Part shown: positions 6,764 through 40,937 of the stretch, piece by piece
How positions within the stretch are numbered: position 1 is the first letter of the stretch
How the letters are laid out: each line of letters begins with the position of its first letter
Source of the DNA: Clostridia bacterium
GTDB lineage: Bacteria; Bacillota; Clostridia; RGIG6154
Direction of reading: 5' to 3'
DNA: 64,000 bases
NCBI GenBank assembly: GCA_045605445.1
Contig: JAZUPZ010000004.1
Span: 1,695-65,694 of the forward strand
Position numbers and translations under genes: made by a program
The notes under the pieces: model-generated
Database searches by the model: none
What the model saw: only the letters and a program-made list of their open reading frames with translations
Told to the model about the DNA's origin: nothing

Positions 6764-6772
6764 GGAGATAAT

Positions 6773-7135
6773 ATGAAAAATTTTAATTGCGACGAAATAA
6801 TTGATAAATATATAAAATACGCTGAAGAAGAAGGCGCTTCGAAAATTAATGGAGACTATAAACTGGGAAACCAAATGTCAAAAAAATTGGAAAGACTATT
6901 TGATAGGTTTAGGGATAATAAAGAAGATGCAGAATGTATAATAGAAGGCATACTGAACAGTGATTGTCGCCGGGCAAGGATTTTAATAGCTGTTGATGCA
7001 TTACGGATTGGTATTTTAGAAGAAAAAGCGGTCTCTGAATTGAAAAAAAATATTAAAAGAGGAGATGTTTTTTCGATTGGTGCAGAAATAGCTTTGGAAA
7101 ATTGGAGAAGACAAGGGGGTGGTTCTGCGGTGTAG
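6773..7135 (+). CDS. Putative cognate immunity protein for the RHS C-terminal nuclease toxin.
   Basis: 120-aa ORF starting 9 nt after the toxin stop, with a GGAGA RBS, on the same strand. It has no signal peptide and is predicted cytoplasmic. This position is canonical for RHS/CDI immunity genes. I do not recognise a family. Confidence 0.4.
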   Translation: MKNFNCDEIIDKYIKYAEEEGASKINGDYKLGNQMSKKLERLFDRFRDNKEDAECIIEGILNSDCRRARILIAVDALRIGILEEKAVSELKKNIKRGDVFSIGAEIALENWRRQGGGSAV

Positions 7136-7292
7136 TGACACAGTGATACGAGGATGCTTCCGCTGTCTTGATAAATTGGATAAATAAAAAACGGGCGGAT
7201 GCTCACATCCGACATTGTATTAATTTGATGAAATATTCCAATTATGCTACAATCGGATCAGATAAATTATGAAAAATCAAAGGAGGAATATT

Positions 7293-18900: not shown

Positions 18901-19001
18901 TCAACGACAGAACACTCGTTCCTGTAAGATTCATTACTGAAGCACTTGGTGCAAAGGTTGAATGGATTGAGGATAAACAACTCGTTAAGATAAGAATCTG
19001 A
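15945..19001 (+). CDS. Secreted BNR/Asp-box repeat beta-propeller protein (GH74-like or sialidase-like glycosidase candidate). It has an N-terminal CBM6/35-like module and a C-terminal tandem Cu-amine-oxidase-N-like (Cu_amine_oxidN1) stalk domain.
   Basis: Signal peptide MKKIISLFLVLTLVLSMVTVATA. At least 8 S/TxDxGxTW motifs are present (STDRGDTW, SRDGFKTW, TRDNGETW, TTDGGQNW, STDNGINW, YDLGETW, SEDWGVTY, YDNGKTW). The C-terminus has two copies of the INDRTMVPMRRIFEDVGADVYWDE / INDRTLVPVRFITEALGAKVEWIED motif. Confidence 0.7.
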   Translation: MKKIISLFLVLTLVLSMVTVATAAVFDTVERNEAESTKISKKQGETAVIENANFSGGSAVELTVTKYDEWLKNDYMRFAVPVNQRAVFTIKVGVKKGPNQGIMQLWFSDVNERIGEKIDLYSPTEEYVEVNLGDFPCNIQYTGRWFEFRVDGKNPASKGANINVDYIQLDYADEYEPRYSDRIPYLEGEAPKAYGDEPYAWGQLMEGGTGRSNHLVIHPTEPGLMYMGTDMGGAYRWEDDTYTWTPLLDTVVDASRGEWLGIDGIGVDPNDANVVYLCVGTASNKGNDYMGAVLKSTDRGDTWTETGFKALFSSNADPARSTSERIGVEPGNSNNVWVGTMVDGLYRSRDGFKTWEKVEIPVTLSKNKVFPSIVAFDERTKSAAGCSTIYIAIEGYGLIVTRDNGETWEDVEGCPSGNIRKMKQANDGTFVVVTASSGLWTFKDGIWKDISPAGNKKWATAEICKTDSNYIITSWNKGPIGSFGQYTYYTTDGGQNWRMFRDDMIKNHTTPRLEWGAFLANVTDIVIDPYNKGRVFMCGWSNFYMTDDIFAEKPVFTNHTIGVEHGCSCHMISLPKGARLIMSPYDYAGGRYTDPTQYCDEMLPPKEANPSRIAFCENDPNFIVRIGKNAGAYSTDNGINWRAFGALPEELNGIEIHDAAVSSDIYPETGYPAVYVVGHKSQPFVTYDLGETWMQGTGAVAWHNSSKWGRGRRIATDKKDANIVYYLAKDGLYKSEDWGVTYTLIAEGATSEYNSAVVRTSFATNGAKAGVWYSESEGDNRLWYSSNQGLLFKNVGNFTWVRDFDFGKPESDDKPPVVYVWGTREKVRGLHASYDNGKTWKVLHNDATAKQKLVTTMVICADRQTFGAVYVGSSGRGTKFGVPANMEHPFYTNKDDEIKVMINSQLEIFDVEPQLINDRTMVPMRRIFEDVGADVYWDEDTQTVTAIRKVSSQYGIEETTVQLTIGSKTIKINDVEKEMDIAPVVINDRTLVPVRFITEALGAKVEWIEDKQLVKIRI

Positions 19002-26513: not shown

Positions 26514-29500
26514 TTATTGTTTCACTTTAATTGAAAGTGTAGGTCTGTTTTTGGGATTTTCAATTTCCTTGGTATAAAGCTCAAGGATTTTTTCATTGTT
26601 TTCGGTAATTGCAATACCGATTGAAACAATCTTGTCACCTTTGTATTCTTTAATAATGTAATCTGTAACGTCAAAGGTCATCAGTGGTTTTTCTGTTCCG
26701 GTAAGGAGATACTGACCGATTAAATTTCCGAAAGGAATAATTCTCTGTGTGCGGTCAGAGTATTCTGCAGAATGAGGAATTGAGTAAACAAGCTTTTCAT
26801 TTTTAGAAGCTGAAACCTCTGTCCATTTGTCAAACTCAACCTCGTAAATACCAAGATTCTGCTCTTCTTCTGTATATCTCTTTTTAACCTTAAGACTTAA
26901 GGTTGCACTTTCAATTTCGCCCTTAACGTCGCTTATGTCAAACATAAGGTAGCCTTCCGCTGAACGGTTAAGACCTGAGTAGTTTTTGATGTACATTGAA
27001 GCGTTTGAACCGTAGTCATCGCTGTAGGGGAGCTTGTCGTAATAAATATATGTATCATCTGTCGGATAGAAGGTGTAAACTCCGTTCTCATCTGCCTCAG
27101 CAGGTTTTTCTGTAACCTCTGCCTGAAGTGTAACTGTTTTTGTTTCTTCTGTCCAGTCAACCTTGCCGTTTAAGGATTCCGTAACAAATCTGATTGGAAC
27201 AAGTGTTCTGTCGCAGGTAACGTAAGGCGCTGCATCAAGTGTTATTTCCTTGTCGTTTACATAAGCCTTGGTTGAACCGATTGTAAGAATAATTGTTTTG
27301 TCGCCTTTAACAGCTGTAACAGTCTGTGTGGGGTCATCCCAGGAAACTGTTGCACCAAGCTCTTCAAAGATTTTTCTCATTGGAACAAAGGTTCTGTCGT
27401 TAACTGTTTCTGGGTCAACATCAAAGAAAAGTCTTGTGCCGTTTAAGATAACGGTAATTCTTTCGTCGAGGAATTTCTTGAAGTTGTCAGGCTCGTAGAT
27501 GAATGTGCCGCCGTATGTACCAATCCAGGCTCTGTTTGAGAATGGTTCAAAGTTAATGTCGGTAACATAGCGAAGTCCCGGAAGACCTGTAACAACGTGA
27601 AATGTCTGTCCGTGGTCATAGCTTTCAAGAAGACCGATGCTCTTTGAGCCTGCCGCAGAGTTTCTGAAACCTATAAGCATATGGTCGGGATTTTTCGGGT
27701 CAAAGGCAATGTCTGTAACAATATCCGTATGACCGTTGTATTTGGGTTCAAATACTATAGTTTCGGGAGTTTGTCCGTATGTGAATTTAACCATTGCATG
27801 ACTCTGTGTGCCGATATATAAAGTGTTTTTATCAACAGAATCAGCACCTGAACCTGCCGCAACAAGAGTGGTATTGCCCATTGATTCCCAGTTTACACCT
27901 CTGTCAAAGGAGATAAAAGCTTCTCTGGCATCATTGTCATATGAGAAAACAACATCGTTGTCAACGGGAGAAACCGCCAGAATGTTTTTGGAGTTTGGAG
28001 TCCAGGTTTTGCCTCTGTCACGGCTTGTATAACCGGAAGCGTAAATAAAGTTTTCATCTTTGTTGTGATACTGGAAAACAACGTTGTCGCCTGTGTAGTC
28101 ACAACCCTCAACCTTAACCCATGACTTTCCGCCGTCAAAGGTTTCTTCCATAGCCTGAGCGCTCCATCCGCCTACAAAACAGTAAAGGTGGTTTGCATCT
28201 TTCGGGTCAGAAAGAATTGATTCAACAGATTTTGCAGTTCCTCTTCTCGGGTAGTTATATATTGAACGAACTGTAGGGAAATCATTTCCACCGTAGTAAG
28301 GTTCGTTTGAAACTGCAAGGTTTTTGTCACGGAATCCGTACCATATTCTTCCGTCGGGAGCAAATTCAACCCAGGTTAAGCCTGAATTTCCTGCACCTGA
28401 AGAACAGGGGAAGTAGTCAACTCCGCCGTTTTCCGATTTGTATAAAGTATCCCAGAATGCGGCATAAATTACATCAGGGTTTGTATCGTCACCCCACATA
28501 CCTTCCTGAGTCCAGCCGTTGTTGTTGTCAAGAAGAGTATCTTCGCAGTAAACGTAAGGTGTTATCCAGGTTTTGCCGTAGTCGTGGCTTGCACGCAAGG
28601 GGTAAACAATGTTTGTAAGTCTTACATAAAGATTCGGAATTCCGTTTGCAGAAGGTTTCTTCGCAAACTCAACTCTTGCGGGAGTTCCGTTCTTGGTTGA
28701 AGCACCCATATCCATTGTCATAGCACTCCAACTTGAACCGTTGTCAAAGGTTTCATAAAGCTTTTTGTTGCAAATTGCAACCCAGTGACTGTCGTTAACA
28801 GGGTCCATTGTAACAGCGGTGACCGCCTGGCCTGCTTCGGGAGTAACAATTTTCCACAGAGTGCCGCCGTTTGTTGTAATGTGAAGTCCGGGAGCCTCTC
28901 CGCCTGCAACTGCACAAATGATTTTCTGTCCGTCGGGAGATACTGACATTGCTTCAACGTAAGCAAATGTTCCTGCACTGCCAAGGTTTGTCCATTTAAC
29001 ACCGCCGTCTGAAGATTTCATAACGCCCGATGTTGTAAGAGCATAAAGGTTTTTGCTATCGTCAAAGGCAAGAAGATTTGCCGCGTGACCGTTAACAAAT
29101 GCCGCATCAAGACACATTTTCCAGGTAACACCGCCATCGGTTGACTTATAAAGACCGTCAATTGCCGATTTGTTGGCTTTGCTTGTGTAGCTTGAAGTAC
29201 CGCCTCTCCAGCCGTGAGCCGCATAGCAGATGTTTGCATTATCGGGATCAAAAATAAAGCTTGATACCGACCAGGTAGCATCGCCTTCTCTTACCTTAAA
29301 CCAGGTATTTCCGCCGTCGTGACTGTACATTGAGCCTGCAACGTCGGTGCTGAAAAGAAGATAGTTTGGATTTGAAGGTGCAGAGGCAACGGCAGTAATA
29401 ACCTGTCCGCCTTCGCTGCCCATACTCCAACCAACCTCGTTTTCGGTTTGCATAGTATAGTAGAGGAACCAGGGAGTGTATCTCACCGTGTTTCCGCTTT

Positions 29501-29636
29501 CAATAACCGGATGTCCGAACACGTTCCAGGGGAGGCGTGCCGGGTCGTAAATTTCCGGATAATCTTTTGCCCATGCTGTGCTCATTACTGAAAAAACAAG
29601 AAGCATGCAGAGCATTAAACTGATAAATTTTTTCAT
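26514..29636 (-). CDS. Secreted BNR/Asp-box repeat beta-propeller protein (second paralog; GH74-like or sialidase-like). It has a tandem Cu_amine_oxidN1-like stalk and an extra C-terminal beta-sandwich-like domain.
   Basis: Signal peptide MKKFISLMLCMLLVFSVMSTAWA. More than 10 xxDxGxTW-type motifs are present (SHDGGNTW, STDGGVTW, SSDGGVKW, FDNGSSW, SHDYGKTW, FDGGKSW, SRDRGKTW, FDRGVNW, YDHGQTF). Stalk motifs: VNDRTFVPMRKIFEELGATVSWDD and CDRTLVPIRFVTESLNGKVDWTEE. Confidence 0.7.
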   Translation of the reverse strand: MKKFISLMLCMLLVFSVMSTAWAKDYPEIYDPARLPWNVFGHPVIESGNTVRYTPWFLYYTMQTENEVGWSMGSEGGQVITAVASAPSNPNYLLFSTDVAGSMYSHDGGNTWFKVREGDATWSVSSFIFDPDNANICYAAHGWRGGTSSYTSKANKSAIDGLYKSTDGGVTWKMCLDAAFVNGHAANLLAFDDSKNLYALTTSGVMKSSDGGVKWTNLGSAGTFAYVEAMSVSPDGQKIICAVAGGEAPGLHITTNGGTLWKIVTPEAGQAVTAVTMDPVNDSHWVAICNKKLYETFDNGSSWSAMTMDMGASTKNGTPARVEFAKKPSANGIPNLYVRLTNIVYPLRASHDYGKTWITPYVYCEDTLLDNNNGWTQEGMWGDDTNPDVIYAAFWDTLYKSENGGVDYFPCSSGAGNSGLTWVEFAPDGRIWYGFRDKNLAVSNEPYYGGNDFPTVRSIYNYPRRGTAKSVESILSDPKDANHLYCFVGGWSAQAMEETFDGGKSWVKVEGCDYTGDNVVFQYHNKDENFIYASGYTSRDRGKTWTPNSKNILAVSPVDNDVVFSYDNDAREAFISFDRGVNWESMGNTTLVAAGSGADSVDKNTLYIGTQSHAMVKFTYGQTPETIVFEPKYNGHTDIVTDIAFDPKNPDHMLIGFRNSAAGSKSIGLLESYDHGQTFHVVTGLPGLRYVTDINFEPFSNRAWIGTYGGTFIYEPDNFKKFLDERITVILNGTRLFFDVDPETVNDRTFVPMRKIFEELGATVSWDDPTQTVTAVKGDKTIILTIGSTKAYVNDKEITLDAAPYVTCDRTLVPIRFVTESLNGKVDWTEETKTVTLQAEVTEKPAEADENGVYTFYPTDDTYIYYDKLPYSDDYGSNASMYIKNYSGLNRSAEGYLMFDISDVKGEIESATLSLKVKKRYTEEEQNLGIYEVEFDKWTEVSASKNEKLVYSIPHSAEYSDRTQRIIPFGNLIGQYLLTGTEKPLMTFDVTDYIIKEYKGDKIVSIGIAITENNEKILELYTKEIENPKNRPTLSIKVKQ

Positions 29637-29778
29637 TCTTATCACCCCATAATTATTATACAAGTCAGTAAGTAGCAAAAACAATATCTATTTTCGCATT
29701 TTATGAAAAATTGAAAGATTTTTGTTTATATAGTACAAAAAAGCTCCCGCTTGATATTTGGGAGCTTTTTCCTGATTT

Positions 29779-30672
29779 TTACTGAACAGTTACTTTGTTT
29801 TTTATAATTTCCGAAGAGCCGTTGTCATTTCCCATAAAGGCGCTGTCGCCGTGGTAGAAAATTTCTCCGTTACTGTCAATGGCATAGTAGCCGGTAGGAG
29901 AGGCACAAACTTTTATAATATTCTTCCATTCCTCCGGATTTGCAACCTCTTTCATTGAACCGAAAAATTTAACGGTTCCGTCGCTCTGGAGAATAATGCC
30001 GTTGTCTTCGCAAACAGAAAGCTGTGTAATATTCTTGTAGAATTTTATATCATCAAGGTCAAAACGGTTGTCTCCTGCGGAAACAGCGCTTCCGTCTGCC
30101 TTTATTCCAATAGTGCACATCTGTCCCGCGCCAATTTCAACAATACCCTTAAATTCGGTAAGGTCACACTGCCCTTTGTCGTTTCTTCCTGTTGCAACGC
30201 AGGTTCCGTTCTTTTTCAGGCCTACCGTATGACCGCCTGATGTGGCAATGTCAACAATATCTGTCCAGGAGGAAACCTCTGCCTGCCCTTTCGAGTTGTC
30301 GCCCGAGGCAACAACCGTTCCGTCTGATTTTAAACCAACCATAAAGTTGCTTCCGCCGGAAAGCTTAACAATGTTGTTCCAGCCTTTTATGTCTTCAAGA
30401 TTTTCGTTGAGCTCGCCCTTTACTTCAAGGGTGCCGTCGGGCTTTAAAGCAATTATGCTGCTTTCGAAAACGAAAATATCCAAAACTTCTGAAAAATCGG
30501 AAGCCTCTTTGAAAGCCCCTTCAACCTTAAGCTGTCCCTTCTCCAAAAGAGCAACCGAGGTTGCCGAAGCCGAAATTTTTGCATCTGTAGTAACAGATTT
30601 TACCTCTTCCCCGCAGGATGCAAGAGAAAAAGTTATAATCAATGCTGTTAATAATGAAAGAATTCTTTTCAT
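29779..30672 (-). CDS. RCC1/BLIP-II-like repeat lipoprotein.
   Basis: Lipobox LASCGEE. Repeated DGTVVASGDNSKGQ / NGTCVATGRNDKGQ / DGSAVSAGDN modules. AAGGAG RBS. Confidence 0.6.
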   Translation of the reverse strand: MKRILSLLTALIITFSLASCGEEVKSVTTDAKISASATSVALLEKGQLKVEGAFKEASDFSEVLDIFVFESSIIALKPDGTLEVKGELNENLEDIKGWNNIVKLSGGSNFMVGLKSDGTVVASGDNSKGQAEVSSWTDIVDIATSGGHTVGLKKNGTCVATGRNDKGQCDLTEFKGIVEIGAGQMCTIGIKADGSAVSAGDNRFDLDDIKFYKNITQLSVCEDNGIILQSDGTVKFFGSMKEVANPEEWKNIIKVCASPTGYYAIDSNGEIFYHGDSAFMGNDNGSSEIIKNKVTVQ

Positions 30673-31445: not shown

Positions 31446-32033
31446 ATGGCAAAATTTGTATGTTCAGTGTGCGGTTATGTTCACGAAGGAGATTCAGCTC
31501 CTGCAAACTGTCCGGTATGTAAGGTTCCGGCTGAAAAGTTCAAAGTTATGGAAGAGGGCGCAGCTCTCGCAGCAGAACACGAATACGGTGTTTATGCAAA
31601 AACAGTTAAAAACAATCCCGACATCTCAGAAGAAGATAAGAAATATATCTTTGAACAGCTCGTTGCTAACTTCAACGGCGAATGTTCAGAAGTAGGAATG
31701 TATCTTTGCATGGCAAGAATTGCTCACAGAGAAGGTTATCCTGAAATAGGACTTTACTGGGAAAAAGCAGCTTACGAAGAAGCTGAACACGCAGCTAAGT
31801 TTGCAGAACTTCTCGGCGAAGATTTAGAACCTAATATGAAGGCTACAACAAAAGACAACCTCAAATGGAGAGTTGACTGCGAATACGGCGCAACTCAGGG
31901 TAAATTCGACCTTGCATCTTGCGCTAAGAAAAACGGCCTCGACGCAATTCACGACACAGTTCACGAAATGGCTCGCGACGAAGCTCGACACGGCAGAGGA
32001 CTTGAAGGTCTTTTAAAGAGATATTTTAAATAA
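31446..32033 (+). CDS. rbr: Reverse rubrerythrin (N-terminal rubredoxin-like CxxC-x12-CxxC plus a ferritin-like di-iron domain).
   Basis: [27 protein letters not shown], then E..H di-iron ligand motifs ([22 protein letters not shown]). Confidence 0.85.
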
Positions 32034-32607: not shown

Positions 32608-32689
32608 TAAAAAAGTTGTAAAGAATGACATTTTGGTAGAAAATTCAAAAAACCATTGACAAATAAAAAATACGGGAGTATAATACGTT

Positions 32690-32972
32690 TAAAATTTGAA
32701 TATCACAAAAAACGACTGTGACGAGGACGGTCGGATTGTGAGGCCTTGAGAGAGTTGCCGGGTGGTGCGAGGCAATGGCGGAGCTTTCCAATGACTTATC
32801 ACCTCCGAGTCGAAGGACCGAAAGCAAAAGCAAGTAGACTCCTTCCGTAATGCTGCGTAAAGGCAAAGGGCTTGATGGAGCCCGGTGAGTGACGGAATAT
32901 ATTTTCCGTAATTTGAGTGGTACCGCGGGTAGTTTAACCCGTCTCAAAGTTATCTTTGAGACGGGTTTTTTG
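32690..32972 (+). promoter_or_regulatory. T-box riboswitch leader. The promoter (TTGACA-N17-TATAAT) lies at 32656-32684, the T-box motif at 32910-32928 and the intrinsic terminator at 32935-32972.
   Basis: AGAGAG-containing Stem I region. The conserved T-box sequence aatttgaGTGGTACCGCGgg is present. A terminator follows (aacccgtctcaaag-ttatc-tttgagacgggtt plus a T7 run), with its 5' strand able to pair alternatively with the T-box (antiterminator). The specifier codon could not be assigned by eye. Confidence 0.7.
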
Positions 32973-33031
32973 TTTTATTCAGATTTGTAACCAAAAAACA
33001 GATTTGTCAGAAATGAAAGGAGACAAAAACA

Positions 33032-35332
33032 ATGGATTACAGTTTGAAAGAAGTAGCAGGCAGAATCAAAGACCTGCGCGAAGCAAAAGGATACACTCAG
33101 GAGGAGCTGGCAAAGCTTTGCGGCGTATCTGCAGAAGATTACAAAACTCTTGAGTTGGGCGAAACGGATTTCAGCTTCACGTTTATTTACAAATGTGCCA
33201 AGGCCTGCGGAGTTGAAGTTGTTGACCTGCTTGACGGAACAAGCACAACGCTTACCTCCTTTGCAGTTACAAGAAAAGGGGAAGGTCTTAAAATTGTTAA
33301 GAAGCACGGCGTAGAATACAACAACCTTGCTCCGAAATTCAAAGAAAAGCTTGCAGAGCCCTTTCTTGTTAAATTCCCTTATATCGAAGAGGAACAAAAT
33401 GCTCCTATCCCGCTGAATTCTCACAACGGTCAGGAATTTGACGTTATCGTTAAAGGTTCCTTAAAGGTTCAGGTTGGAAATCACATAGATGTTCTCAACG
33501 AAGGAGACTCTATTTTCTATAACAGTATTATTCCTCACGGAATGGTTGCAGTATCAGAGGGCGGTTGCGAATTCCACGCAGTTGTTCTTAATCCTCAAAA
33601 TGGAACGGTAAGCGAGGAATATCCGGAAGCGCCGATGATTGCGGCAAAAGCTGAAGCTAAAAAAGCAAAATCAGAAACAGTTGCAGATAAATTTATCGAA
33701 TCGTCTTATGATGAAAACGGCGTGTTCAACGGAATCACCTTCAAAAATGAAGATAAGTTCAATTTTGCTTTCGACTGCGTTGATGCAATTGCAGAAAAAA
33801 ATCCCGACAAGCTTGCAATGATGTGGGTTGCAAACGACAAGACCGACAGAAAATTCACCTTCAGCGATATGAAAAAATATTCTGCAAAAACAGCAAACTA
33901 TTTTGAATCGCTGGGAATCAAAAAGGGCGACACGGTAATGCTTGTGCTGAAAAGACATTATCAGTTCTGGTTCAGTATGCTTGCTCTCCATAAAATCGGA
34001 GCTATCGCAATTCCTGCAACAAACCAGCTTGTGGAACACGATTTTGAATACAGATACAAAGCGGCAAGGGTAAAGGCAGTTGTCTGTACCGCCGATGGCG
34101 ATGTTGCGGCAGAGGCCGAAAAAGCTGCGGCACAGTTCCCCGGAATGGTTAAAGTTCTGGTTGGCGGAAGCAGAGAAGGCTGGAACGATTTCAACGTTGA
34201 AATGGAGCGCTTCAGCACTCATTATAACAGAACGGAAAATACTCCCTGCGGAAACGACCCTATGCTTATGCTCTTCACCTCGGGCACAACAGGTTATCCG
34301 AGAATTGCAACTCATTCATACAAATATGCTCTCGGCCATTATCCTACAGCAAAGCACTGGCATAATGTAAATCCTGATGGACTTCATTTTACAATTTCCG
34401 ATACAGGCTGGGGAAAAGCTCTCTGGGGCAAGCTTTACGGCCAGTGGCTCTGTGAAGCGGCAACATTTACCTACGATTTTGACCGCTTCCATTCAGAGGA
34501 CATTCTGCCGATGTTTGCAAAATATAATATAACAACCTTCTGTGCACCGCCTACAATGTACCGTTTCTTCATCAAAGAGGATTTGTCAAAATATGACCTT
34601 TCTTCAATAGAATATGCAACAACGGCGGGCGAGGCATTAAATCCCGAGGTGTTCAACCAGTTTAAAAAAGCAACGGGACTTACAATTATGGAAGGCTTCG
34701 GTCAGACCGAAACAACCCTTTCAATTGCAAACTTTGTAGGTTCAACTCCGAAAATCGGTTCAATGGGAAGACCAAGTCCTTTGTACGATGTTGTTGTTCT
34801 TGACCCTGACGGAAAGGAATGTAAAACGGGCGACACCGGTGAAATCTGCATTCGTGTAAAGGAAAACGTTCCCTGCGGGCTCTTTATCGGTTATTATCTT
34901 GACGAAGAAAAAACAAATGAAGTGTGGCACGACGGATATTATCATACCGGTGACCAGGCAACAATGGACGAAGACGGTTATCTCTGGTATGTGGGCAGAA
35001 TTGACGATGTTATCAAATCGTCAGGCTACCGTATCGGACCATTTGAAATCGAGAGCGTTATTATGGAGCTTCCTTATGTTCTTGAATGTGCAATTACTCC
35101 CGTTCCCGACGAGGTAAGAGGTCAGATTGTAAAGGCAACTGTTGTTCTTGTAAAGGGACAGCAGGGTTCGGAGGAGCTTAAAAAAGAAATTCAGGAATAT
35201 GTTAAAACTCATACGGCTCCTTATAAATATCCAAGAATTGTTGAATTTGTAGATGAACTTCCGAAAACCATAAGCGGTAAGGTAAGAAGAGTTGAAATTC
35301 GCAAAAACGACCTTGAAAAAATGAATAAGTAA
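33032..35332 (+). CDS. Fusion protein: an N-terminal HTH-XRE plus cupin regulator module (about 190 aa) joined in frame to an AMP-forming acyl-CoA synthetase/ligase (about 570 aa).
   Basis: Residues 1-60 are an XRE HTH (LKEVAGRIKDLREAKGYTQEELAKLCGVS). Residues 100-190 are a cupin (HNGQEFDVIVKGSLKVQVGN...). A linker ...AAKAEAKKAKSE follows. The ligase carries the AMP-binding signature LMLFTSGTTGYPRIATHS, then YHTGDQATMDEDGYLWYVGRIDDVIKSSGYRIGPFEIE and a terminal PKTISGKVRR. No in-frame stop exists between the modules. Confidence 0.65.
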   Translation: MDYSLKEVAGRIKDLREAKGYTQEELAKLCGVSAEDYKTLELGETDFSFTFIYKCAKACGVEVVDLLDGTSTTLTSFAVTRKGEGLKIVKKHGVEYNNLAPKFKEKLAEPFLVKFPYIEEEQNAPIPLNSHNGQEFDVIVKGSLKVQVGNHIDVLNEGDSIFYNSIIPHGMVAVSEGGCEFHAVVLNPQNGTVSEEYPEAPMIAAKAEAKKAKSETVADKFIESSYDENGVFNGITFKNEDKFNFAFDCVDAIAEKNPDKLAMMWVANDKTDRKFTFSDMKKYSAKTANYFESLGIKKGDTVMLVLKRHYQFWFSMLALHKIGAIAIPATNQLVEHDFEYRYKAARVKAVVCTADGDVAAEAEKAAAQFPGMVKVLVGGSREGWNDFNVEMERFSTHYNRTENTPCGNDPMLMLFTSGTTGYPRIATHSYKYALGHYPTAKHWHNVNPDGLHFTISDTGWGKALWGKLYGQWLCEAATFTYDFDRFHSEDILPMFAKYNITTFCAPPTMYRFFIKEDLSKYDLSSIEYATTAGEALNPEVFNQFKKATGLTIMEGFGQTETTLSIANFVGSTPKIGSMGRPSPLYDVVVLDPDGKECKTGDTGEICIRVKENVPCGLFIGYYLDEEKTNEVWHDGYYHTGDQATMDEDGYLWYVGRIDDVIKSSGYRIGPFEIESVIMELPYVLECAITPVPDEVRGQIVKATVVLVKGQQGSEELKKEIQEYVKTHTAPYKYPRIVEFVDELPKTISGKVRRVEIRKNDLEKMNK

Positions 35333-35358
35333 CTTTATTTGGTAAGAAAATAAATGAG

Positions 35359-36804
35359 GTGATTCAAGTGAAAAAAACCTATGTAACATCAATGCCGAAC
35401 CATATCGGGGCATTTTTAAAGGCGAGCAGGTGCTTTTCTCTGCTTGGGGTAAATATAACCCGTGTAAGCTATAACAAAGCGGTTGATTCACATACCTTGT
35501 TTATTGACGCTGAAGGCACAGGAGAACAGCTTGAAAAGGCAGATGCCGAGCTTGAAAAAATTGGGTATCTGCAAAACAACGAAAATAAAACGAGCATTGT
35601 TTTGTTGGAATTTTGCCTTGAGGATGTTCCCGGGAGCGTAACCGGTGTGCTTGAGCTTATAAATGAGTTTAATTTCAATATTTCATACATCAGCTCCCAG
35701 GAAAACGGAACAGATTATCAGTATTTCAAAATGGGACTTTATGTTGATGATCCCGATAAGGTTTCAACGTTTCTCAAAGAGGCGGAAAAGCTTTGCAGAG
35801 TTCGCGTTATAGATTACAACAGCTCGGAAAAGATATATGATAACAGTATTTTTTACAATACCTATGTAATGGGGCTGTCGCAGGTAATGGGGCTTTCAGA
35901 AGAAATAAGCCGGGAGCTTCTTGTTCACGTTAACCTGGCAATGCAAACTCTTGATGAGCAGGGCTTGTCTCCTTACAGAACCTTTGACAGCATCAGTAAA
36001 TTTGCAGAGCTCCTCGGGGCATCGCGGGGGAAGAATTTCAATCCCCGCATAAGCAGTCATAAGATAACGGAGAATACCGAAATTGTTCTTATAGAGCCGC
36101 CCTGCGGAAGTAATACGCTTATTATAAAAAGTAATGGCAGAGTACTGTTTGTTGACAGCGGCTACGCCTGCTACAAGGATGAAATGCTTGAAATTTTCAG
36201 AAGAATTCTTCCCGGCTTTGACGAAATGGAAAAAACAATTCTGGTTACTCATGCAGATGTTGACCATTGTGGACTGCTTCCGCTTTTTGACAGAGTAATT
36301 GCAAGCGGAAAAACCGCAGACTGTCTGAAAAAAGAGTATAACGGGAAAAACGGGTACAGGGAATCAAACCCGCTTCATAAGCCTTATATAAATATCTGCA
36401 AAATTCTTACTTCGTATAAGGCGCCAACCCCCGAAAAGCTTTCAACTCCGTGGGGAAATAGTGAAAATCCTTCCAAGCCTCTTGAACAAGTCGGATTCTA
36501 TGATTTTGAAGAACTTCACTTTGAGGTGTATGAAGGATGCGGCGGTCATCTGCCCGGAGAAACTGTTCTTATCGATTATTCAAAGCATATTGCAATTACA
36601 GGGGATATTTATATAAACACCCATGGGCTTACGGCTCAGCAGGCGGAATATAATCAGTATGCGCCTATTCTTATGACCTCGGTTGATACTGACCCGAAGC
36701 TGTGCGTTGAAGAAAGAAGGGCAATTGTTGAAAGGCTCGGCGTAGGTAACTGGCAGATTTTCGGTGCTCACGGCTTTAAAAAAGATTATTCGGTAAATTC
36801 ATAA
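35359..36804 (+). CDS. ACT-ACT plus metallo-beta-lactamase-fold protein. The start is uncertain (GTG 35359 or GTG 35368).
   Basis: Two N-terminal ACT-like beta-alpha-beta-beta-alpha-beta units (TYVTSMPNHIGAFLKASRCFSLLGVNITRVS; IVLLEFCLEDVPGSVTGVLELINEFNFNISYI). The C-terminus has an MBL-like motif (ILVTHADVDHCGLLPLF). A 26-nt gap separates it from the upstream gene. Confidence 0.55.
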   Translation: MIQVKKTYVTSMPNHIGAFLKASRCFSLLGVNITRVSYNKAVDSHTLFIDAEGTGEQLEKADAELEKIGYLQNNENKTSIVLLEFCLEDVPGSVTGVLELINEFNFNISYISSQENGTDYQYFKMGLYVDDPDKVSTFLKEAEKLCRVRVIDYNSSEKIYDNSIFYNTYVMGLSQVMGLSEEISRELLVHVNLAMQTLDEQGLSPYRTFDSISKFAELLGASRGKNFNPRISSHKITENTEIVLIEPPCGSNTLIIKSNGRVLFVDSGYACYKDEMLEIFRRILPGFDEMEKTILVTHADVDHCGLLPLFDRVIASGKTADCLKKEYNGKNGYRESNPLHKPYINICKILTSYKAPTPEKLSTPWGNSENPSKPLEQVGFYDFEELHFEVYEGCGGHLPGETVLIDYSKHIAITGDIYINTHGLTAQQAEYNQYAPILMTSVDTDPKLCVEERRAIVERLGVGNWQIFGAHGFKKDYSVNS

Positions 36805-36914
36805 AACACATAAAAGAGTTGTAACGATGCGTTGCAACTCTTTTTAGTATACACTTGAAAAAATCATTGCGGGAGTATATAATAGTACAATAAAAGATAA
36901 AGGGGACAGGGAGA

Positions 36915-38549
36915 ATGGAAAATCTTTTTCGCAGTAAAGAGGATTACAGAAATTTTGTAAGAGAGCTTACAATTCCGCTGAAGCCTTTTTATTCGGATGG
37001 CAAAGCAGAACTTAAATACGGAGTACAGTCTTCAAGAGCAGAAGAAAAAACTCAGAGAACAGAAGCTTTTATTCGTCCTTTGTGGGGACTTGCACCGCTC
37101 TGGGCAGGTGGCGGAGAATGTGAAGATTTTGATAAAATATACCTTGAGGGAATTATAAACGGAACCGACCCGGAGCATCCCGAATACTGGGGAAAGCTTA
37201 GGTCACACGCACAGGAACTTTGTGAATCCCCTGCGGTTGCACATTCTGTTCTTATGGCGTCCCATAAGCTGTGGGACCCTCTTACAGAAAAACAAAAGGA
37301 CAACCTCTCTGATTGGCTTTACGGTGCAAACGGACTTGACCATGCCGACAACAACTGGCACTTCTTCCCTTTGCTTGTTAATGTGTGTCTTAAAAAGCTT
37401 GGCAGAAAATACAGTCAGGAAACTATAGACAAAAAGCTTGAGATAATCGATTCTTTTTACAGAGAAGACGGATGGTATTCCGACGGAAAACGTAATCGCT
37501 TTGAATACTATGTTCCTTTTGCACTTCATTTTTACGGACTTATTTATGCAAAGCTTATGGAAAAGGATGACCCTGAAAGAAGCAAGCTTTTCAAAGAAAG
37601 AGCAATGCTTTTTGCAAAGCATTATATTTATTATTTTGATGAAGAGGGAAGAGAAATTCCTTTCGGACGATCACTTGTTTACAGATTTGCCCATCTTTCT
37701 TTCTGGTCTGCTTGTATTTATGCAGGAATTGAGCCTTATCCGATGGAGGTTATGAAAGGTATTATCGCCCGCAACTTAAGATGGTGGATGAGTATGCCCA
37801 TTTTAGATAATGCGGGTATTCTTAACATAGGTTATGGCTATAATCAGCCTCATATGGCAGAAGGCTACACAGCGTTCGGCTCGGCTTTCTGGTGTATGAA
37901 AACAATGATTCTTCTGGCACTTCCCGACGAACATCCTTTCTGGTCAGCAAAAGAAGCACCGCTTCCAAAGCTTGACAGTGTTCACATAATGAAAGAGCCT
38001 TCCATTGTGGTGCAGAGAATAAACGGCTATGCCTGCCTGCTTCCGACAGGACAGAACGGCGGTGTTGAAAACCACAGCGATGAAAAATATTCAAAATTTT
38101 TATACAGTTCAAAATACGCTTTCAGCATAGCCGGCTCTTATGCCAATTTAGATTCTGCAGGTGCCGACAATATGCTTGTTTTTGAGCATAAAGGACAGTA
38201 TTTTATACGTCGTAAATGTATTGAATATAAGGTTAACAACGATGCAAGTGTTTACTCAAAATGGGCACCCTTTGAAGGTATAACAGTTGAAACCCTTATA
38301 GTTCCCACCGGGGATGGACATATCCGTAAACATAAAATTGAGGCAAACAACGAATATGTGGCTTACGATTGCGGCTTTCAGCTTGAAGAGGAAAGCGGCG
38401 ATGTTATCGGAAACGGAGAAAGTGTTGTAATAACAACTGCTCCTAACCTTAATCTTTATAATCCCCGACCTCTTAAAATGAAAGCAGTTAAATATATTGT
38501 AAAAAAAGGAATAACGGAAATTGAAACAAAAGTTGTTTATCCAAAGTAA
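36915..38549 (+). CDS. DUF2264 family protein (predicted alpha/alpha-barrel glycoside-hydrolase/lyase-like).
   Basis: 544 aa, cytoplasmic, with a W/Y/F-rich core (…GWYSDGKRNRFEYYVPFALHFYG…). Assignment to DUF2264 is from memory of the family signature, not a search. Confidence 0.5.
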   Translation: MENLFRSKEDYRNFVRELTIPLKPFYSDGKAELKYGVQSSRAEEKTQRTEAFIRPLWGLAPLWAGGGECEDFDKIYLEGIINGTDPEHPEYWGKLRSHAQELCESPAVAHSVLMASHKLWDPLTEKQKDNLSDWLYGANGLDHADNNWHFFPLLVNVCLKKLGRKYSQETIDKKLEIIDSFYREDGWYSDGKRNRFEYYVPFALHFYGLIYAKLMEKDDPERSKLFKERAMLFAKHYIYYFDEEGREIPFGRSLVYRFAHLSFWSACIYAGIEPYPMEVMKGIIARNLRWWMSMPILDNAGILNIGYGYNQPHMAEGYTAFGSAFWCMKTMILLALPDEHPFWSAKEAPLPKLDSVHIMKEPSIVVQRINGYACLLPTGQNGGVENHSDEKYSKFLYSSKYAFSIAGSYANLDSAGADNMLVFEHKGQYFIRRKCIEYKVNNDASVYSKWAPFEGITVETLIVPTGDGHIRKHKIEANNEYVAYDCGFQLEEESGDVIGNGESVVITTAPNLNLYNPRPLKMKAVKYIVKKGITEIETKVVYPK

Positions 38550-38557
38550 AATGTTTC

Positions 38558-38587
38558 GGGAGCTGTAAAAATTACAGCTCCTTTTTT
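38558..38587 (+). terminator. Rho-independent terminator ending the T-box operon.
   Basis: gggagctgtaa-aaat-ttacagctcc followed by tttttt. Confidence 0.65.
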
Positions 38588-38778
38588 ACGTTTTCTGTAT
38601 TTATATCCCCCTCTTGATTTGAGGTTTTGGAAAAACTTTGGAATTTATAAAAATATGTATAAATAATTTGTAAAATGCAACTTGTCAACAATTTGTCGTA
38701 AATTAGCAATATATAAGTATTGAAAAAGAAAACTTTTGAGTGTATAATTAAATAAAGTAAAACAGAAAGGAAATAATA

Positions 38779-40862: not shown

Positions 40863-40937
40863 TGGTGACTCCAAGGGGATTTGAACCCCTATTACCGCCT
40901 TGAGAGGGCGATGTCCTAACCATTAGACGATGGAGCC
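40863..40937 (-). tRNA. tRNA-Glu (anticodon CTC).
   Basis: The reverse complement is GGCTCCATCGTCTAATGGTTAGGACATCGCCCTCTCAAGGCGGTAATAGGGGTTCAAATCCCCTTGGAGTCACCA. This is a cloverleaf with a Glu-type D-arm, an anticodon loop CTCTCAA and an encoded CCA. A terminator hairpin lies at 40827-40862. Confidence 0.75.

What the first reader, a model, noticed from the sequence alone, without database searches (positions are those of the whole stretch)
32650..38590. T-box riboswitch-controlled operon encoding an HTH/cupin::acyl-CoA-synthetase fusion, an ACT-ACT-MBL protein and a DUF2264 protein, nested inside a PerR/rubrerythrin/ferritin/flavodiiron/rubredoxin cluster
The 5' leader is a clear T-box element (promoter, AGAGAG Stem I, aatttgaGTGGTACCGCG T-box, terminator). 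Yet it controls neither an aminoacyl-tRNA synthetase nor a biosynthesis/transport gene. The first gene has a full XRE HTH plus a cupin (ligand-binding) module joined without a stop to a complete AMP-forming acyl-CoA synthetase. I do not know this architecture from characterised proteins. It is followed at 26 nt by a tandem-ACT (amino-acid-sensing-type) domain fused to an MBL-fold hydrolase, and then by a DUF2264 protein. A single terminator ends the unit. The set resembles a tRNA-charging-responsive module that adenylates or CoA-activates an amino-acid-derived acid. The ACT domains suggest an amino-acid ligand. The regulator domain may make the enzyme autoregulatory. Placement between perR-rbr-ftn and fprA-rd suggests a link to redox or oxygen stress.
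Basis: partly seen in the sequence, partly recalled or inferred. Interest (0 to 1): 0.78.

Follow-up and report, generated by a model that had tools for sequence, protein, structure and literature searches.

The report
Isoleucine-starvation RNA switch for isoacid salvage
An RNA switch that senses uncharged isoleucine tRNA turns on an enzyme that most likely activates the gut fermentation acid 2-methylbutyrate so the bacterium can rebuild isoleucine from it, which points to genes and a control logic for a rumen pathway known biochemically since the 1960s.

Summary
The T-box is real: full-length RF00230 match, 92.3 bits, E 6e-21. Its specifier is AUC (Ile), invariant in 63 orthologous leaders. 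The HTH/cupin::acyl-CoA-synthetase fusion is also real, a 766-aa ORF found in at least 580 species genomes.

The operon is shorter than claimed. A strong terminator (36812-36845) and a separate promoter split off DUF2264, which is absent from all 161 related loci. The ACT-ACT-MBL gene is an optional, clade-restricted partner. The redox-gene neighbourhood is not conserved.

The ligase domain is 55% identical to Methanosarcina MacsMa, which prefers 2-methylbutyrate, and keeps its pocket Trp. In more distant relatives the fusion occurs as Ile-type and Val-type paralogs, each behind a matching T-box (AUC or GUA/GUC). One pocket residue separates the two classes perfectly: Gly461 in Ile-type, Ala in Val-type. 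These genes are often followed by a VorB-family 2-oxoacid:ferredoxin oxidoreductase, and in one locus by an aminotransferase.

Best reading: tRNA-Ile-gated salvage of 2-methylbutyrate into isoleucine by reductive carboxylation. The roles of the acidic HTH-like domain, the cupin with its conserved His-Glu-His triad, and the ACT-MBL protein remain open. This is a new variant of known kinds.

The parts
32656..32684 (+). Promoter: -35 TTGACA, 17-nt spacer, -10 TATAAT
   Evidence: 12 of 12 consensus match. Both hexamers are conserved in 72 orthologous loci while the spacer is not.
32692..32712 (+). 5' arm of a long-range helix that closes the leader (AAATTTGAATATCACAAAAAA), at or near the transcription start
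   Evidence: AAATTTGAATATC is invariant in 63 leaders. It pairs with 32966-32986 in the MFE fold and in the RNAalifold consensus. 92.9% of cells are paired, against 41-63% when the partner is slid.
32709..32949 (+). T-box leader (Stem I, Stem II, Stem III, antiterminator)
   Evidence: RF00230 model positions 1-219 all matched, 92.3 bits, E 6e-21. 24 of 76 consensus pairs show compensatory double changes across 63 orthologs.
32798..32800 (+). Specifier codon AUC (Ile), followed by A
   Evidence: The covariance-model alignment places AUC at the specifier position. ATC is invariant in 63 of 63 leaders, while the two preceding bases vary TT/CC/CT.
32910..32927 (+). Conserved T-box sequence AAUUUGAGUGGUACCGCG. 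The UGGU at 32918-32921 would pair with the tRNA 3' end ACCA.
32936..32977 (+). Leader terminator: 14-bp hairpin plus U-tract. Its 5' half overlaps the 3' half of the antiterminator.
32966..32986 (+). 3' arm of the leader-closing helix (TTTTTTGTTTTATTCAGATTT): the terminator U-tract plus the next 10 nt
   Evidence: GTTTTATTCARAT is nearly invariant. The changes seen are A-to-G opposite U, which keeps a wobble pair.
33032..35332 (+). Fusion gene, 766 aa. HTH-like domain aa 1-72 (33032-33247). Cupin aa 73-190 (33248-33601), with H131, E135 and H169 at 33422-33424, 33434-33436 and 33536-33538. Linker aa 191-239. MacsMa-type acyl-CoA synthetase aa 240-766 (33749-35329), with G461 at 34412-34414 and W465 at 34424-34426.
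   Evidence: Pfam. PDB 3ETC at 668 bits and 55% identity. Invariant residues. Gly/Ala class switch.
35368..36804 (+). ACT-ACT-MBL-fold protein, 478 aa, with variant metal motif H-A-D-V-D-H. Second gene of the operon in this clade only.
   Evidence: Pfam. Identical deposited protein. Invariant residues. Structure model and fold search. Adjacency to the fusion.
36812..36845 (+). Intrinsic terminator that ends the T-box operon
   Evidence: 15-bp hairpin, dG -18.9 kcal/mol, z -6.1, followed by UUUUU.
36855..38582 (+). NOT part of the unit. Own promoter (36855-36883), DUF2264 gene (36915-38549) and its terminator (38558-38582).
   Evidence: DUF2264 is absent from all 161 related loci.

Best explanation
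This is a two-gene operon gated by an isoleucine-specific T-box transcription attenuator. When tRNA-Ile(GAU) is uncharged, it pairs with the AUC specifier and with the UGGU bulge. That stabilises the antiterminator, and RNA polymerase reads through the terminator at 32936-32977.

The first product is an AMP-forming short or medium branched-chain acyl-CoA synthetase of the MacsMa/MbcS type. It converts exogenous 2-methylbutyrate, an abundant gut 'isoacid', into 2-methylbutyryl-CoA. A VorB-family 2-oxoacid:ferredoxin oxidoreductase then reductively carboxylates this to 2-oxo-3-methylvalerate, and an aminotransferase makes isoleucine. The module is therefore Ile-starvation-induced salvage biosynthesis.

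Shown here: the T-box and its Ile specifier; the homology and conserved catalytic and pocket residues of the ligase; the Ile/Val paralog-to-T-box correspondence; the VOR and aminotransferase linkage in relatives.

Inferred: the substrate, the direction of flux, and that this organism encodes a VOR elsewhere in its genome.

The N-terminal HTH-like/cupin module is conserved and probably binds a metal or ligand through His131-Glu135-His169. It more likely modulates the enzyme than binds DNA. The ACT-ACT-MBL protein is a clade-specific accessory, probably an amino-acid-regulated metallo-enzyme, of unknown reaction.
For: T-box.
- Full-length covariance-model match, E 6e-21.
- AUC is invariant in 63 orthologous leaders, and 24 pairs show compensatory changes.
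- A T-box motif lies upstream of the fusion gene in almost all of the ~78 close loci with enough upstream sequence.

Ligase.
- 668 bits and 55% identity over 521 aa to PDB 3ETC, MacsMa. Its preferred substrate is 2-methylbutyrate and its Trp259 is critical (PMC10455477).
- W259, G459, Y460, R490, K519, Y525 and Y527 equivalents are conserved, and those checked, plus Lys750 of the C-terminal SGK motif, are invariant in 64 orthologs.
- The best NCBIfam model is MbcS, a 2-methylbutyrate/isobutyrate-CoA synthetase (PMC10026030).

Paralog logic.
- Among 48 full-length T-box-linked fusions, 28 carry AUC and 20 carry GUA/GUC.
- The nearest sequence neighbour has the same specifier class in 48 of 48.
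- Tandem Ile-then-Val pairs, each with its own T-box, occur on at least 9 contigs.
- Exactly one alignment column separates the classes. Residue 461 is Gly (Ile-type, as in MacsMa) or Ala (Val-type), four residues before the pocket Trp. This fits a one-methyl difference between 2-methylbutyrate and isobutyrate.

Pathway context.
- In 16 of 48 distant loci with enough downstream sequence, the fusion gene or genes are followed on the same strand by a P-loop protein, a 2x[4Fe-4S] ferredoxin and OFOR alpha, beta and gamma subunits.
- The alpha subunit passes the curated cut-off for VorB, 547 bits against 399.
- In L086 the T-box(Ile) operon ends with a class I/II aminotransferase.

Ecology.
- The close relatives named by host are ruminant gut and rumen Oscillospiraceae/Acutalibacteraceae MAGs.
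- Reductive carboxylation of 2-methylbutyrate to Ile is documented for rumen organisms (PMC2812497; PMC10658910).
Against: - No VOR or aminotransferase lies next to the fusion in the window or in its 81 close relatives. Whether this genome encodes a VOR could not be checked.
- The ligase scores below the MbcS equivalog cut-off, 453 against 850. No substrate was tested.
- The T-box is 0.7 bit under Rfam's gathering score. The covariance-model alignment skips the four 5'-side AGUA consensus positions of Stem I.
- About 30 more distant fusion genes have no T-box, so the T-box is not an obligatory partner of this architecture.
- The functions of about 240 N-terminal residues and of the ACT-MBL gene are unexplained.
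- The Ile and Val classes are also two clades. A fixed Gly/Ala difference could be historical, although it is the only such column and it lies in the pocket motif.
Confidence: 0.7

Rival explanations
1. The ligase supplies lipid primers. It scavenges 2-methylbutyrate to make 2-methylbutyryl-CoA as a FabH primer for anteiso branched-chain fatty acids when Ile, the normal primer source, is scarce. This is what MbcS does in Staphylococcus aureus.
For: The best NCBIfam hit is MbcS. MbcS has exactly this role (PMC10026030). Ile limitation would also deplete anteiso primers. An acyl-ACP thioesterase gene lies 6 kb downstream, which is weak support.
Against: In relatives the gene is co-operonic with a VorB-family ferredoxin oxidoreductase and with an aminotransferase, not with fab genes. 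T-boxes sense tRNA charging, which is a protein-synthesis need. Neighbouring Phe T-boxes control PaaK-like ligases whose product has no lipid role. The two uses are not mutually exclusive.
Confidence: 0.1
2. The fusion is a trigger enzyme or transcription factor of the BirA type. The HTH binds DNA, for example its own promoter or the conserved AAATTTGAATATCAC element. The ligase or cupin domain senses acyl-adenylate, CoA or substrate. Together they add autoregulation or regulon control on top of the T-box.
For: HTH_3 and HTH_31 hits are above Pfam cut-offs. The HTH is under purifying selection: 88% identity across 64 orthologs against 74% for the linker. An invariant 15-nt element lies at the transcription start and an inverted copy lies after the terminator. 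Two of the three columns that best separate Ile-type from Val-type proteins lie in the HTH domain.
Against: The HTH domain is net acidic (-1 to -10) in all 12 divergent members. The recognition-helix consensus xxEEY is acidic. The conserved element is not an internal palindrome, and its two copies are about 275 bp apart. The substitutions keep G.U pairing, which fits RNA better than an operator. HppE shows the same two-domain module in a non-DNA-binding enzyme.
Confidence: 0.13
3. The substrate or entry point is different. The ligase might activate propionate, which would be reductively carboxylated to 2-oxobutyrate and fed into the IlvBCD route to Ile. Or it might activate another Ile-related acid rather than 2-methylbutyrate.
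For: MacsMa forms adenylates with C3-C8 acids (PMC10455477). Synthesis of Ile from propionate is known in anaerobes (own knowledge).
Against: MacsMa completes the CoA step only with 2-methylbutyrate among the substrates described. The existence of a Val-T-box paralog differing by Gly-to-Ala in the pocket fits the 2-methylbutyrate/isobutyrate pair. There is no propionate-type analogue for Val. The VorB family acts on branched 2-oxoacids.
Confidence: 0.05
4. One reading: a three-gene T-box operon (fusion, ACT-MBL, DUF2264) functionally tied to the surrounding PerR/rubrerythrin/ferritin/flavodiiron/rubredoxin oxidative-stress cluster.
For: These genes are physically adjacent in this window. PerR-Rbr lie upstream of the fusion in a few relatives (L014, L018, L032, L059, L089). 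The ACT-MBL motif H-x-D-x-D-H resembles the H-x-E-x-D-H motif of flavodiiron proteins (own knowledge), and the model matches FDP and ODP folds among many MBLs.
Against: A terminator and a promoter lie between ACT-MBL and DUF2264. DUF2264 occurs in 0 of 161 loci, FprA in 0, Rd in 1, and PerR/Rbr in 4-5. The neighbourhood of the fusion gene is otherwise highly variable.
Confidence: 0.02

Closest known systems
T-box leader (Rfam RF00230), Ile-specific class, as upstream of ileS and ilv-leu operons
   Same: Stem I with K-turn, specifier loop (AUC plus a purine), AGAGA bulge and distal loop. Stem II and Stem III. A UGGU-containing T-box sequence. Mutually exclusive antiterminator and terminator. 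Transcriptional attenuation logic.
   Different: It controls an acyl-CoA synthetase, and in relatives a ligase-VOR operon, rather than a tRNA synthetase, a de novo pathway or a transporter. I found no paper in the searchable library that reports this. In this clade the covariance-model alignment skips the 5'-side AGUA positions of Stem I, and a conserved helix of about 19 bp pairs the 5' end of the transcript with the terminator U-tract and the sequence after it.
MacsMa, medium-chain acyl-CoA synthetase of Methanosarcina acetivorans (PDB 3ETC)
   Same: 55% identity over the whole 521-aa enzyme. The acyl-pocket Trp259, the Gly at the class-switch position and the CoA-site residues Y460, R490, K519, Y525 and Y527 are conserved. 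2-methylbutyrate is its preferred substrate.
   Different: MacsMa is a stand-alone archaeal enzyme with no N-terminal HTH/cupin module, no T-box, and no physiological role mentioned in the one paper on it that I could read.
MbcS, methylbutyryl-CoA synthetase of Staphylococcus aureus (NCBIfam NF047394)
   Same: Best-scoring curated family. It selectively activates 2-methylbutyrate and isobutyrate scavenged from the medium.
   Different: The score is below the equivalog cut-off (453 against 850). MbcS feeds fatty-acid initiation and is not a fusion. No regulatory leader was reported in the paper I read.
BirA, NadR and PutA-type 'trigger enzymes' (own knowledge)
   Same: A helix-turn-helix domain fused to a metabolic enzyme. 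In BirA that enzyme is adenylate-forming.
   Different: DNA binding is not shown here and the acidic HTH argues against it. The HTH is of the XRE type and is followed by a cupin.
XRE-HTH + cupin two-domain proteins (PDB 1Y9Q regulator; HppE epoxidase, PDB 5U55)
   Same: The same domain order. There are weak but specific sequence matches, E 1e-4 and 2e-3. H-x3-E...H residues sit at the cupin metal-site positions, as in the HppE 2-His-1-Glu Fe(II) site (own knowledge).
   Different: Here the module is fused to a 527-aa ligase. Metal binding and ligand are untested.
SerB2-type ACT-ACT-hydrolase architecture (Mycobacterium avium SerB2)
   Same: Tandem N-terminal ACT domains precede a hydrolase-type catalytic domain. 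The Foldseek match covers the whole length.
   Different: The catalytic domain here is an MBL fold with an H-x-D-x-D-H motif, not a HAD phosphatase. The TM-score is low (0.19-0.20).

Membership tests
T-box leader (RF00230) | Covariance-model score at or above the curated gathering score (93 bits) | tested here: not met
   The window scores 92.3 bits, 0.7 bit short, with E 6e-21 and model positions 1-219 all matched. Orthologous leaders score 83.5-99 bits. I treat it as a member on the structural features in the next rows.
T-box leader (RF00230) | Stem I with a specifier loop that presents a codon followed by a conserved purine | tested here: met
   AUC-A at 32798-32801. ATC is invariant in 63 of 63 leaders, and the flanking helix covaries, GAGG/CCUC against GAAG/CUUC, 28:35.
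T-box leader (RF00230) | Conserved T-box sequence with UGGN, inside an antiterminator that competes with a terminator | tested here: met
   AAUUUGAGUGGUACCGCG at 32910-32927. The 3' half of the antiterminator is the 5' half of the terminator at 32936-32967.
T-box leader (RF00230) | Read-through induced by uncharged cognate tRNA | not testable with these tools
   This needs in vitro transcription or a reporter assay.
ANL superfamily, short/medium-chain acyl-CoA synthetase (MacsMa/MbcS group) | AMP-binding and AMP-binding_C domains with the core motifs and the C-terminal Lys of the SGK motif | tested here: met
   Pfam 200 and 80 bits. TSGTTGYPR, GFGQTE, YHTGD and GRIDDVIKSSGYR are present, and K750 of the SGK motif is invariant. 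Motif names are from my own knowledge.
ANL superfamily, short/medium-chain acyl-CoA synthetase (MacsMa/MbcS group) | MacsMa-type acyl pocket, with the alternative Trp (W259) | tested here: met
   W465 corresponds to W259 and is invariant in 64 orthologs (PMC10455477).
ANL superfamily, short/medium-chain acyl-CoA synthetase (MacsMa/MbcS group) | NCBIfam MbcS equivalog cut-off (850 bits) | tested here: not met
   453 bits. It is a homolog, not an equivalog.
ANL superfamily, short/medium-chain acyl-CoA synthetase (MacsMa/MbcS group) | 2-methylbutyrate-dependent acyl-CoA formation | not testable with these tools
   This needs an enzyme assay.
XRE-family DNA-binding transcription regulators | HTH_3-type fold | tested here: met
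   HTH_3 41.5 bits against cut-off 23; HTH_31 37.6 against 27.
XRE-family DNA-binding transcription regulators | DNA-binding surface: basic or neutral domain with a polar or basic recognition helix and a palindromic operator | tested here: not met
   Net charge is -1 to -10 and the recognition-helix consensus is xxEEY. No palindromic operator was found. The conserved element behaves like an RNA pairing partner.
Metal-binding cupins | His/Glu/His ligands in cupin motifs 1 and 2 | tested here: met
   H131, E135 and H169 are invariant in 12 divergent and 64 close sequences. Metal binding itself was not tested.
Metallo-beta-lactamase fold hydrolases (gene 2) | Canonical H-x-H-x-D-H motif plus the downstream His, Asp and His | tested here: not met
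   The motif is H-A-D-V-D-H, with Asp replacing the second His. H295, D297, D299, H300, H394, D413 and H468 are invariant. The fold itself is supported: Pfam 31.8 against 22.7, and Foldseek E 1e-7.
ACT-domain proteins (gene 2) | ACT domain, beta-alpha-beta-beta-alpha-beta | tested here: met
   Pfam ACT 32.1 against 27 for residues 82-146. The model shows two such units at residues 2-64 and 76-140, and the fold search matches the tandem ACT of SerB2 and 1U8S.
T-box operon membership of DUF2264 | Co-transcription and conserved linkage | tested here: not met
   A terminator at 36812-36845 and a promoter at 36855-36883 intervene. DUF2264 occurs in 0 of 161 related loci.

The most novel reading that the evidence does not exclude
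The protein may be a three-part machine rather than a ligase with a vestigial regulator. The conserved acidic HTH-like domain and the cupin with its invariant His-Glu-His triad would form a second functional site. Options are a metal-dependent catalytic or stereo-selective step on the 2-methylacyl substrate, an allosteric sensor of Ile or the 2-oxoacid, or a BirA-like switch. This site would couple substrate availability to the tRNA-charging signal. In addition, the conserved helix that pairs the transcript's 5' end with the terminator U-tract and the following 10 nt may be a further, undescribed layer of T-box leader control, through processing, stability or termination efficiency.
Probability: 0.25. 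Interest if true: 0.8.

Novelty: new variant of a known kind. Interest (0 to 1): 0.7.

Why it matters
Rumen and gut anaerobes have been known since the 1960s to need or use 'isoacids' (2-methylbutyrate, isobutyrate, isovalerate, phenylacetate) to make Ile, Val, Leu and Phe by reductive carboxylation. Isoacids are fed to ruminants for this reason. None of the papers I could read names a bacterial activation gene or its regulation.

This locus and its relatives give a concrete, testable gene set: a T-box(Ile or Val), a MacsMa-type ligase, a VorB-family oxidoreductase and an aminotransferase. They also give a predicted one-residue specificity switch (Gly461 or Ala) and a regulatory logic in which salvage is switched on only when the cognate tRNA is uncharged.

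The result extends the T-box regulon to carboxylate-activating enzymes. The same genomes also show Phe T-boxes before PaaK-like ligases and Leu T-boxes before another AMP-binding fusion. It also shows that T-box specifiers can be used to annotate acyl-CoA ligase specificity in uncultured gut Clostridia. The fusion protein is very common, present in at least 580 species genomes, yet it is annotated only as 'AMP-binding protein'.

Tried and rejected
- The whole-window Rfam gathering scan missed the T-box, which is 0.7 bit under threshold. An E-value scan resolved this.
- An MFE fold of Stem I alone was uninformative, z -0.13. The specifier was read from the covariance-model alignment and from conservation instead.
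- The exact-sequence contig look-up for the window's fusion protein and for P0270 found nothing, so the source genome was not identified.
- The single-sequence AlphaFold model of ACT-MBL was unusable, pLDDT 44. A 30-sequence alignment gave pLDDT 69.5. The fold search then returned only generic MBL neighbours plus tandem-ACT proteins, with no specific function. Profile and sequence searches of the PDB were equally generic.
- I searched for extra copies of the AAATTTGAATATCAC element as a possible operator. The window has no more matches than chance. In the loci the only recurrent second copy is the inverted one after the terminator. I reinterpreted it as an RNA pairing partner.
- I looked for T-boxes before ACT-MBL where it lies upstream (L028, L068), before an unfused homolog (P0126), and before two distant fusion clades (P0192, P0267). 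None was found.
- The first automatic specifier caller gave several false codons. I replaced it with a family-specific pattern plus manual reading. Three leaders (L160, L162, L166) remain unread.
- Literature: no paper in the searchable library links T-boxes with acyl-CoA ligases, VOR or isoacids. There was no hit for DUF2264. The MacsMa primary papers and the two large T-box surveys (Vitreschak 2008; Gutierrez-Preciado 2009) are not held, so prior mention there cannot be excluded.
- No pathway genes were found among 10 other large ORFs of the window that I scanned.

Full report
OBSERVATION

The region holds a perfect sigma-70 promoter, TTGACA-17-TATAAT, at 32656-32684. It is followed by a leader that matches the whole Rfam T-box model, positions 1-219, at 32709-32949 with 92.3 bits and E 6e-21. 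The whole-window scan at gathering threshold did not list it only because the family threshold is 93 bits. Orthologous leaders score 83-99 bits. The terminator is a 14-bp hairpin at 32936-32967 plus a U-tract, and its 5' half is the 3' half of the antiterminator.

In the covariance-model alignment the specifier position holds AUC, followed by A. In an alignment of 63 distinct orthologous leaders, ATC (window 32798-32800) is invariant while the two preceding bases vary TT/CC/CT. This excludes UAU and CAU. RNAalifold finds 76 consensus pairs, and 24 of them show compensatory double changes. One example is the helix under the specifier loop, GAGG/CCUC in 28 sequences against GAAG/CUUC in 35. The T-box is therefore real, functional-looking and Ile-specific.

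GENES

Gene 1 (33032-35332) is one 766-aa ORF with HTH_3/HTH_31, Cupin_2, AMP-binding and AMP-binding_C. The fusion is not an artefact. Hundreds of 90%-identity clusters have the same length and architecture. At least 580 species-representative genomes encode a relative, and the best 80 are 88-94% identical. Those named by host are ruminant gut or rumen MAGs labelled Clostridia, Oscillospiraceae, Acutalibacteraceae or Ructibacterium. At 50% clustering, only a few clusters are full-length fusions (P0069, P0121, P0125) plus N-terminal fragments. Other MacsMa-like ligases carry C-terminal GNAT or glyoxalase domains instead.

Gene 2 is an ACT plus MBL-fold protein. Its start is GTG 35368, based on a 100% match to a deposited 478-aa protein. 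Gene 3 is DUF2264.

OPERON LIMITS

Directly after gene 2 lies a 15-bp hairpin followed by UUUUU (36812-36845; dG -18.9 kcal/mol, z -6.1). A TTGAAA-17-TATAAT promoter follows at 36855-36883. DUF2264 is next to the fusion in none of 81 close loci or 80 distant loci. It is a separate unit.

ACT-MBL follows the fusion in about 12 of 73 close loci with enough downstream sequence, precedes its T-box in 2, and is absent from all 80 distant loci. Starting instead from ACT-MBL proteins, 4 of 4 contexts place it directly after the fusion. It is therefore a clade-restricted accessory that is faithful to the fusion where it occurs. In 40 of 73 close loci the next gene is on the opposite strand, so the conserved T-box-controlled unit is the fusion gene alone.

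PerR/Rbr sit next to the fusion in 4-5 loci, FprA in none and Rd in one. The redox 'nest' is local synteny, not a conserved association.

WHAT THE LIGASE IS

Residues 240-760 match PDB 3ETC at 668 bits and 55% identity. This is MacsMa of Methanosarcina acetivorans. Its preferred substrate is 2-methylbutyrate, and it is the only substrate described with which the enzyme completes the CoA step. Its Trp259 is critical (PMC10455477).

With a tag offset of 23, which matches G459, Y460, R490, K519, Y525 and Y527 at once (K461 aligns to Arg), all these residues and W259 (W465 here) are conserved. Those checked, together with Lys750 of the C-terminal SGK motif, are invariant in 64 orthologs. The best curated family is MbcS at 453 bits, below its 850-bit equivalog cut-off. 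MbcS is a 2-methylbutyrate/isobutyrate-CoA synthetase (PMC10026030).

TEST OF THE AMINO-ACID/ACID CORRESPONDENCE

A second organism (L082-L085) carries two tandem fusion paralogs, each with its own T-box. The specifiers are AUC for the first and GUC for the second.

A metagenome scan gave 80 diverse loci at 48-64% identity. Reading the specifier upstream of each fusion gave about 28 AUC, about 20 GUA/GUC, about 30 with no T-box (mostly the most distant ones) and 3 unread. Eight further contigs have the tandem arrangement, Ile-type then Val-type.

I aligned 48 full-length T-box-linked proteins, 28 Ile-type including the window and 20 Val-type. The nearest neighbour always has the same specifier class (48 of 48). 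Exactly one column separates the classes perfectly. Window residue 461 is Gly in all Ile-type proteins, in all 64 close orthologs and in MacsMa. It is Ala in all Val-type proteins. The motifs are TGW-G-KALW-GK and TGW-A-KAMW-GK, four residues before the pocket Trp. A one-methyl smaller pocket for the one-carbon smaller acid is what 2-methylbutyrate against isobutyrate predicts.

PATHWAY CONTEXT

In 16 of 48 distant loci with at least 2 kb downstream, the fusion gene or genes are followed on the same strand, often within a few nucleotides, by four further products. These are a 222-aa P-loop protein, a 68-aa 2x[4Fe-4S] ferredoxin, and the alpha, beta and gamma subunits of a 2-oxoacid:ferredoxin oxidoreductase. 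The alpha subunit passes the curated cut-off of the VorB (3-methyl-2-oxobutanoate dehydrogenase) family, 547 bits against 399.

In L086 a T-box(AUC) precedes two fusion paralogs and a class I/II aminotransferase. Ligase, VOR and aminotransferase are the three steps of the reductive-carboxylation route from branched-chain volatile fatty acids to branched-chain amino acids. That route is described for rumen organisms (PMC2812497; PMC10658910; Robinson and Allison 1969 from my own knowledge).

The window and its close relatives do not have VOR adjacent. That this genome has one elsewhere is an inference.

THE N-TERMINAL MODULE

The HTH (aa 1-72) and cupin (aa 73-190) are under selection: 88% and 90% identity across 64 orthologs, against 74% for the linker and 93% for the ligase. 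H131, E135 and H169 are invariant in 12 divergent and 64 close sequences. The PDB matches are an XRE-cupin regulator (1Y9Q, E 1e-4) and the HppE epoxidase cupin (E 2e-3). HppE uses a 2-His-1-Glu Fe(II) site (own knowledge).

The HTH domain is net acidic (-1 to -10) in all 12 members, with an acidic recognition-helix consensus xxEEY. I therefore rate DNA binding and autoregulation as possible but not favoured. A metal- or ligand-binding regulatory or catalytic role seems more likely. This part is unresolved.

ACT-MBL

The alignment-based model (pLDDT 69.5) shows two ACT units and an MBL domain. The fold search gives generic MBLs (BcII, flavodiiron proteins, ODP, alkylsulfatases) and tandem-ACT proteins such as SerB2. 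The metal motif is H-A-D-V-D-H, and H295, D297, D299, H300, H394, D413 and H468 are invariant. Its function is unknown. An amino-acid-regulated hydrolase, for example a thioesterase safety valve, is speculation.

SEEN IN PASSING

A conserved long-range helix closes the leader. AAATTTGAATATCAC(A)AAAAA, just after the -10 box, pairs with the terminator U-tract and the next 10 nt. It appears in the MFE fold (z -4.9) and in the RNAalifold consensus. 92.9% of cells are paired, against 41-63% when the partner is slid. Only G.U-compatible one-sided changes occur, and there is no double covariation. It is absent from the distant clades.

Neighbouring T-boxes in the same genomes point to a general theme of T-box-gated carboxylate salvage:
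- Phe (UUC) before a PaaK-like ligase plus an ACT protein.
- Leu (CUC) before a LeuA-like gene plus an AP_endonuc_2::AMP-binding fusion.
- Tyr (UAC) before an SSF transporter.

COMPARISON AND VERDICT

The element works like, and is, an Ile T-box. The enzyme is a MacsMa/MbcS-type ligase. The new points are:
- the class of gene under T-box control;
- the HTH/cupin fusion;
- the Ile/Val paralog system with a predicted Gly/Ala switch;
- the operonic link to VOR.

I found no report of these in the searchable literature. The two large T-box surveys could not be read.

Novelty: new variant of a known kind. Interest: 0.70. Confidence in the salvage-to-isoleucine mechanism: about 0.7.

Noticed in passing
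window 32692-32712 paired with 32966-32986: A conserved long-range helix of about 19 bp joins the 5' end of the transcript to the terminator U-tract and the next 10 nt, enclosing the whole T-box. The 5' arm is invariant in 63 leaders. The 3' arm changes only A-to-G opposite U. It is absent in distant clades (L082, L086). It could be a processing or stability element, or could influence termination.
   Followed up: partly
L098 396-8576; also L107, L109, L110, L117, L134 (tandem) and L122, L129, L130, L133, L139 (single): Operons of the form T-box(Ile)-fusion, T-box(Val)-fusion, P-loop protein, 2x[4Fe-4S] ferredoxin, then VorB-family OFOR alpha, beta and gamma subunits. In effect this is a complete T-box-gated isoacid-to-2-oxoacid module.
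   Followed up: yes
window codon 34412-34414 (Gly461); alignment of 48 fusions: This is the only alignment column that separates Ile-T-box from Val-T-box ligases: Gly against Ala, four residues before the pocket Trp. Leu464 against Met mostly follows the same split. Two near-discriminating columns (residues 50 and 54) lie in the HTH domain.
   Followed up: yes
L004 3452-3685 with genes at 3738-5144 and about 5100-7600; 15 further loci; L039: A Leu-specific T-box (CUC) precedes an HMGL-like/LeuA_dimer gene and an 820-845-aa AP_endonuc_2 (xylose-isomerase-like TIM barrel)::AMP-binding fusion. This may be the leucine/isovalerate counterpart. It often sits directly upstream of the Ile T-box-fusion unit.
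   Followed up: partly
L004 1187-1441; L081 9004-8753 (-); 8-12 loci in all: A Phe-specific T-box (UUC) precedes a PaaK-like phenylacetate-CoA ligase and a 143-aa ACT protein. In L081 a DAHP synthase follows. This suggests T-box-gated phenylacetate salvage to Phe.
   Followed up: partly
L065, about 11984 (-): A T-box with an apparent Tyr specifier (UAC) lies upstream of a sodium:solute symporter (SSF) that recurs near the fusion gene in 8 loci. A LysR regulator, a PF04392-type ABC transporter and a MaoC-like dehydratase also recur nearby.
   Followed up: no
P0123, P0140, P0128 (representative proteins): Other MacsMa-like ligases at 50-57% identity carry C-terminal GNAT acetyltransferase or glyoxalase/VOC domains instead of the N-terminal HTH/cupin. 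This ligase family is prone to regulatory or accessory fusions.
   Followed up: no
window 35368-36804, residues 295-300 of the 478-aa protein: The MBL metal motif is H-A-D-V-D-H, with a carboxylate in place of the second His, as in the H-x-E-x-D-H motif of flavodiiron proteins. This hints at an Fe or Mn site rather than a di-zinc site.
   Followed up: partly
window 31446-32033: The rubrerythrin has its rubredoxin-like domain at the N-terminus ('reverse' rubrerythrin). It sits in a Fur-family (PerR-like)-Rbr-ferritin row just upstream of the T-box promoter, with no predicted terminator between ferritin and that promoter.
   Followed up: no
window 15945-19001 and 26514-29684 (-): Two very large proteins of more than 1000 aa combine BNR/Sortilin-Vps10 repeats and a Cu_amine_oxidN1 domain; the one at 26514-29684 also has CBM96. 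An RCC1-repeat protein is at 29779-30672 (-). These are probably cell-surface glycan-binding proteins.
   Followed up: no
L087 2910-2987 and 3919-3996 (-); the same in L088: Near-threshold Gut-1 RNA (RF01706) matches, 49.3 and 43.8 bits against 50, flank a DUF6199 gene downstream of an unfused MacsMa-like ligase.
   Followed up: no
window 40866-40937 (-): A single tRNA gene (Rfam 64.6 bits) lies between the rubredoxin and acyl-ACP thioesterase genes. Its anticodon was not determined with ARAGORN.
   Followed up: no
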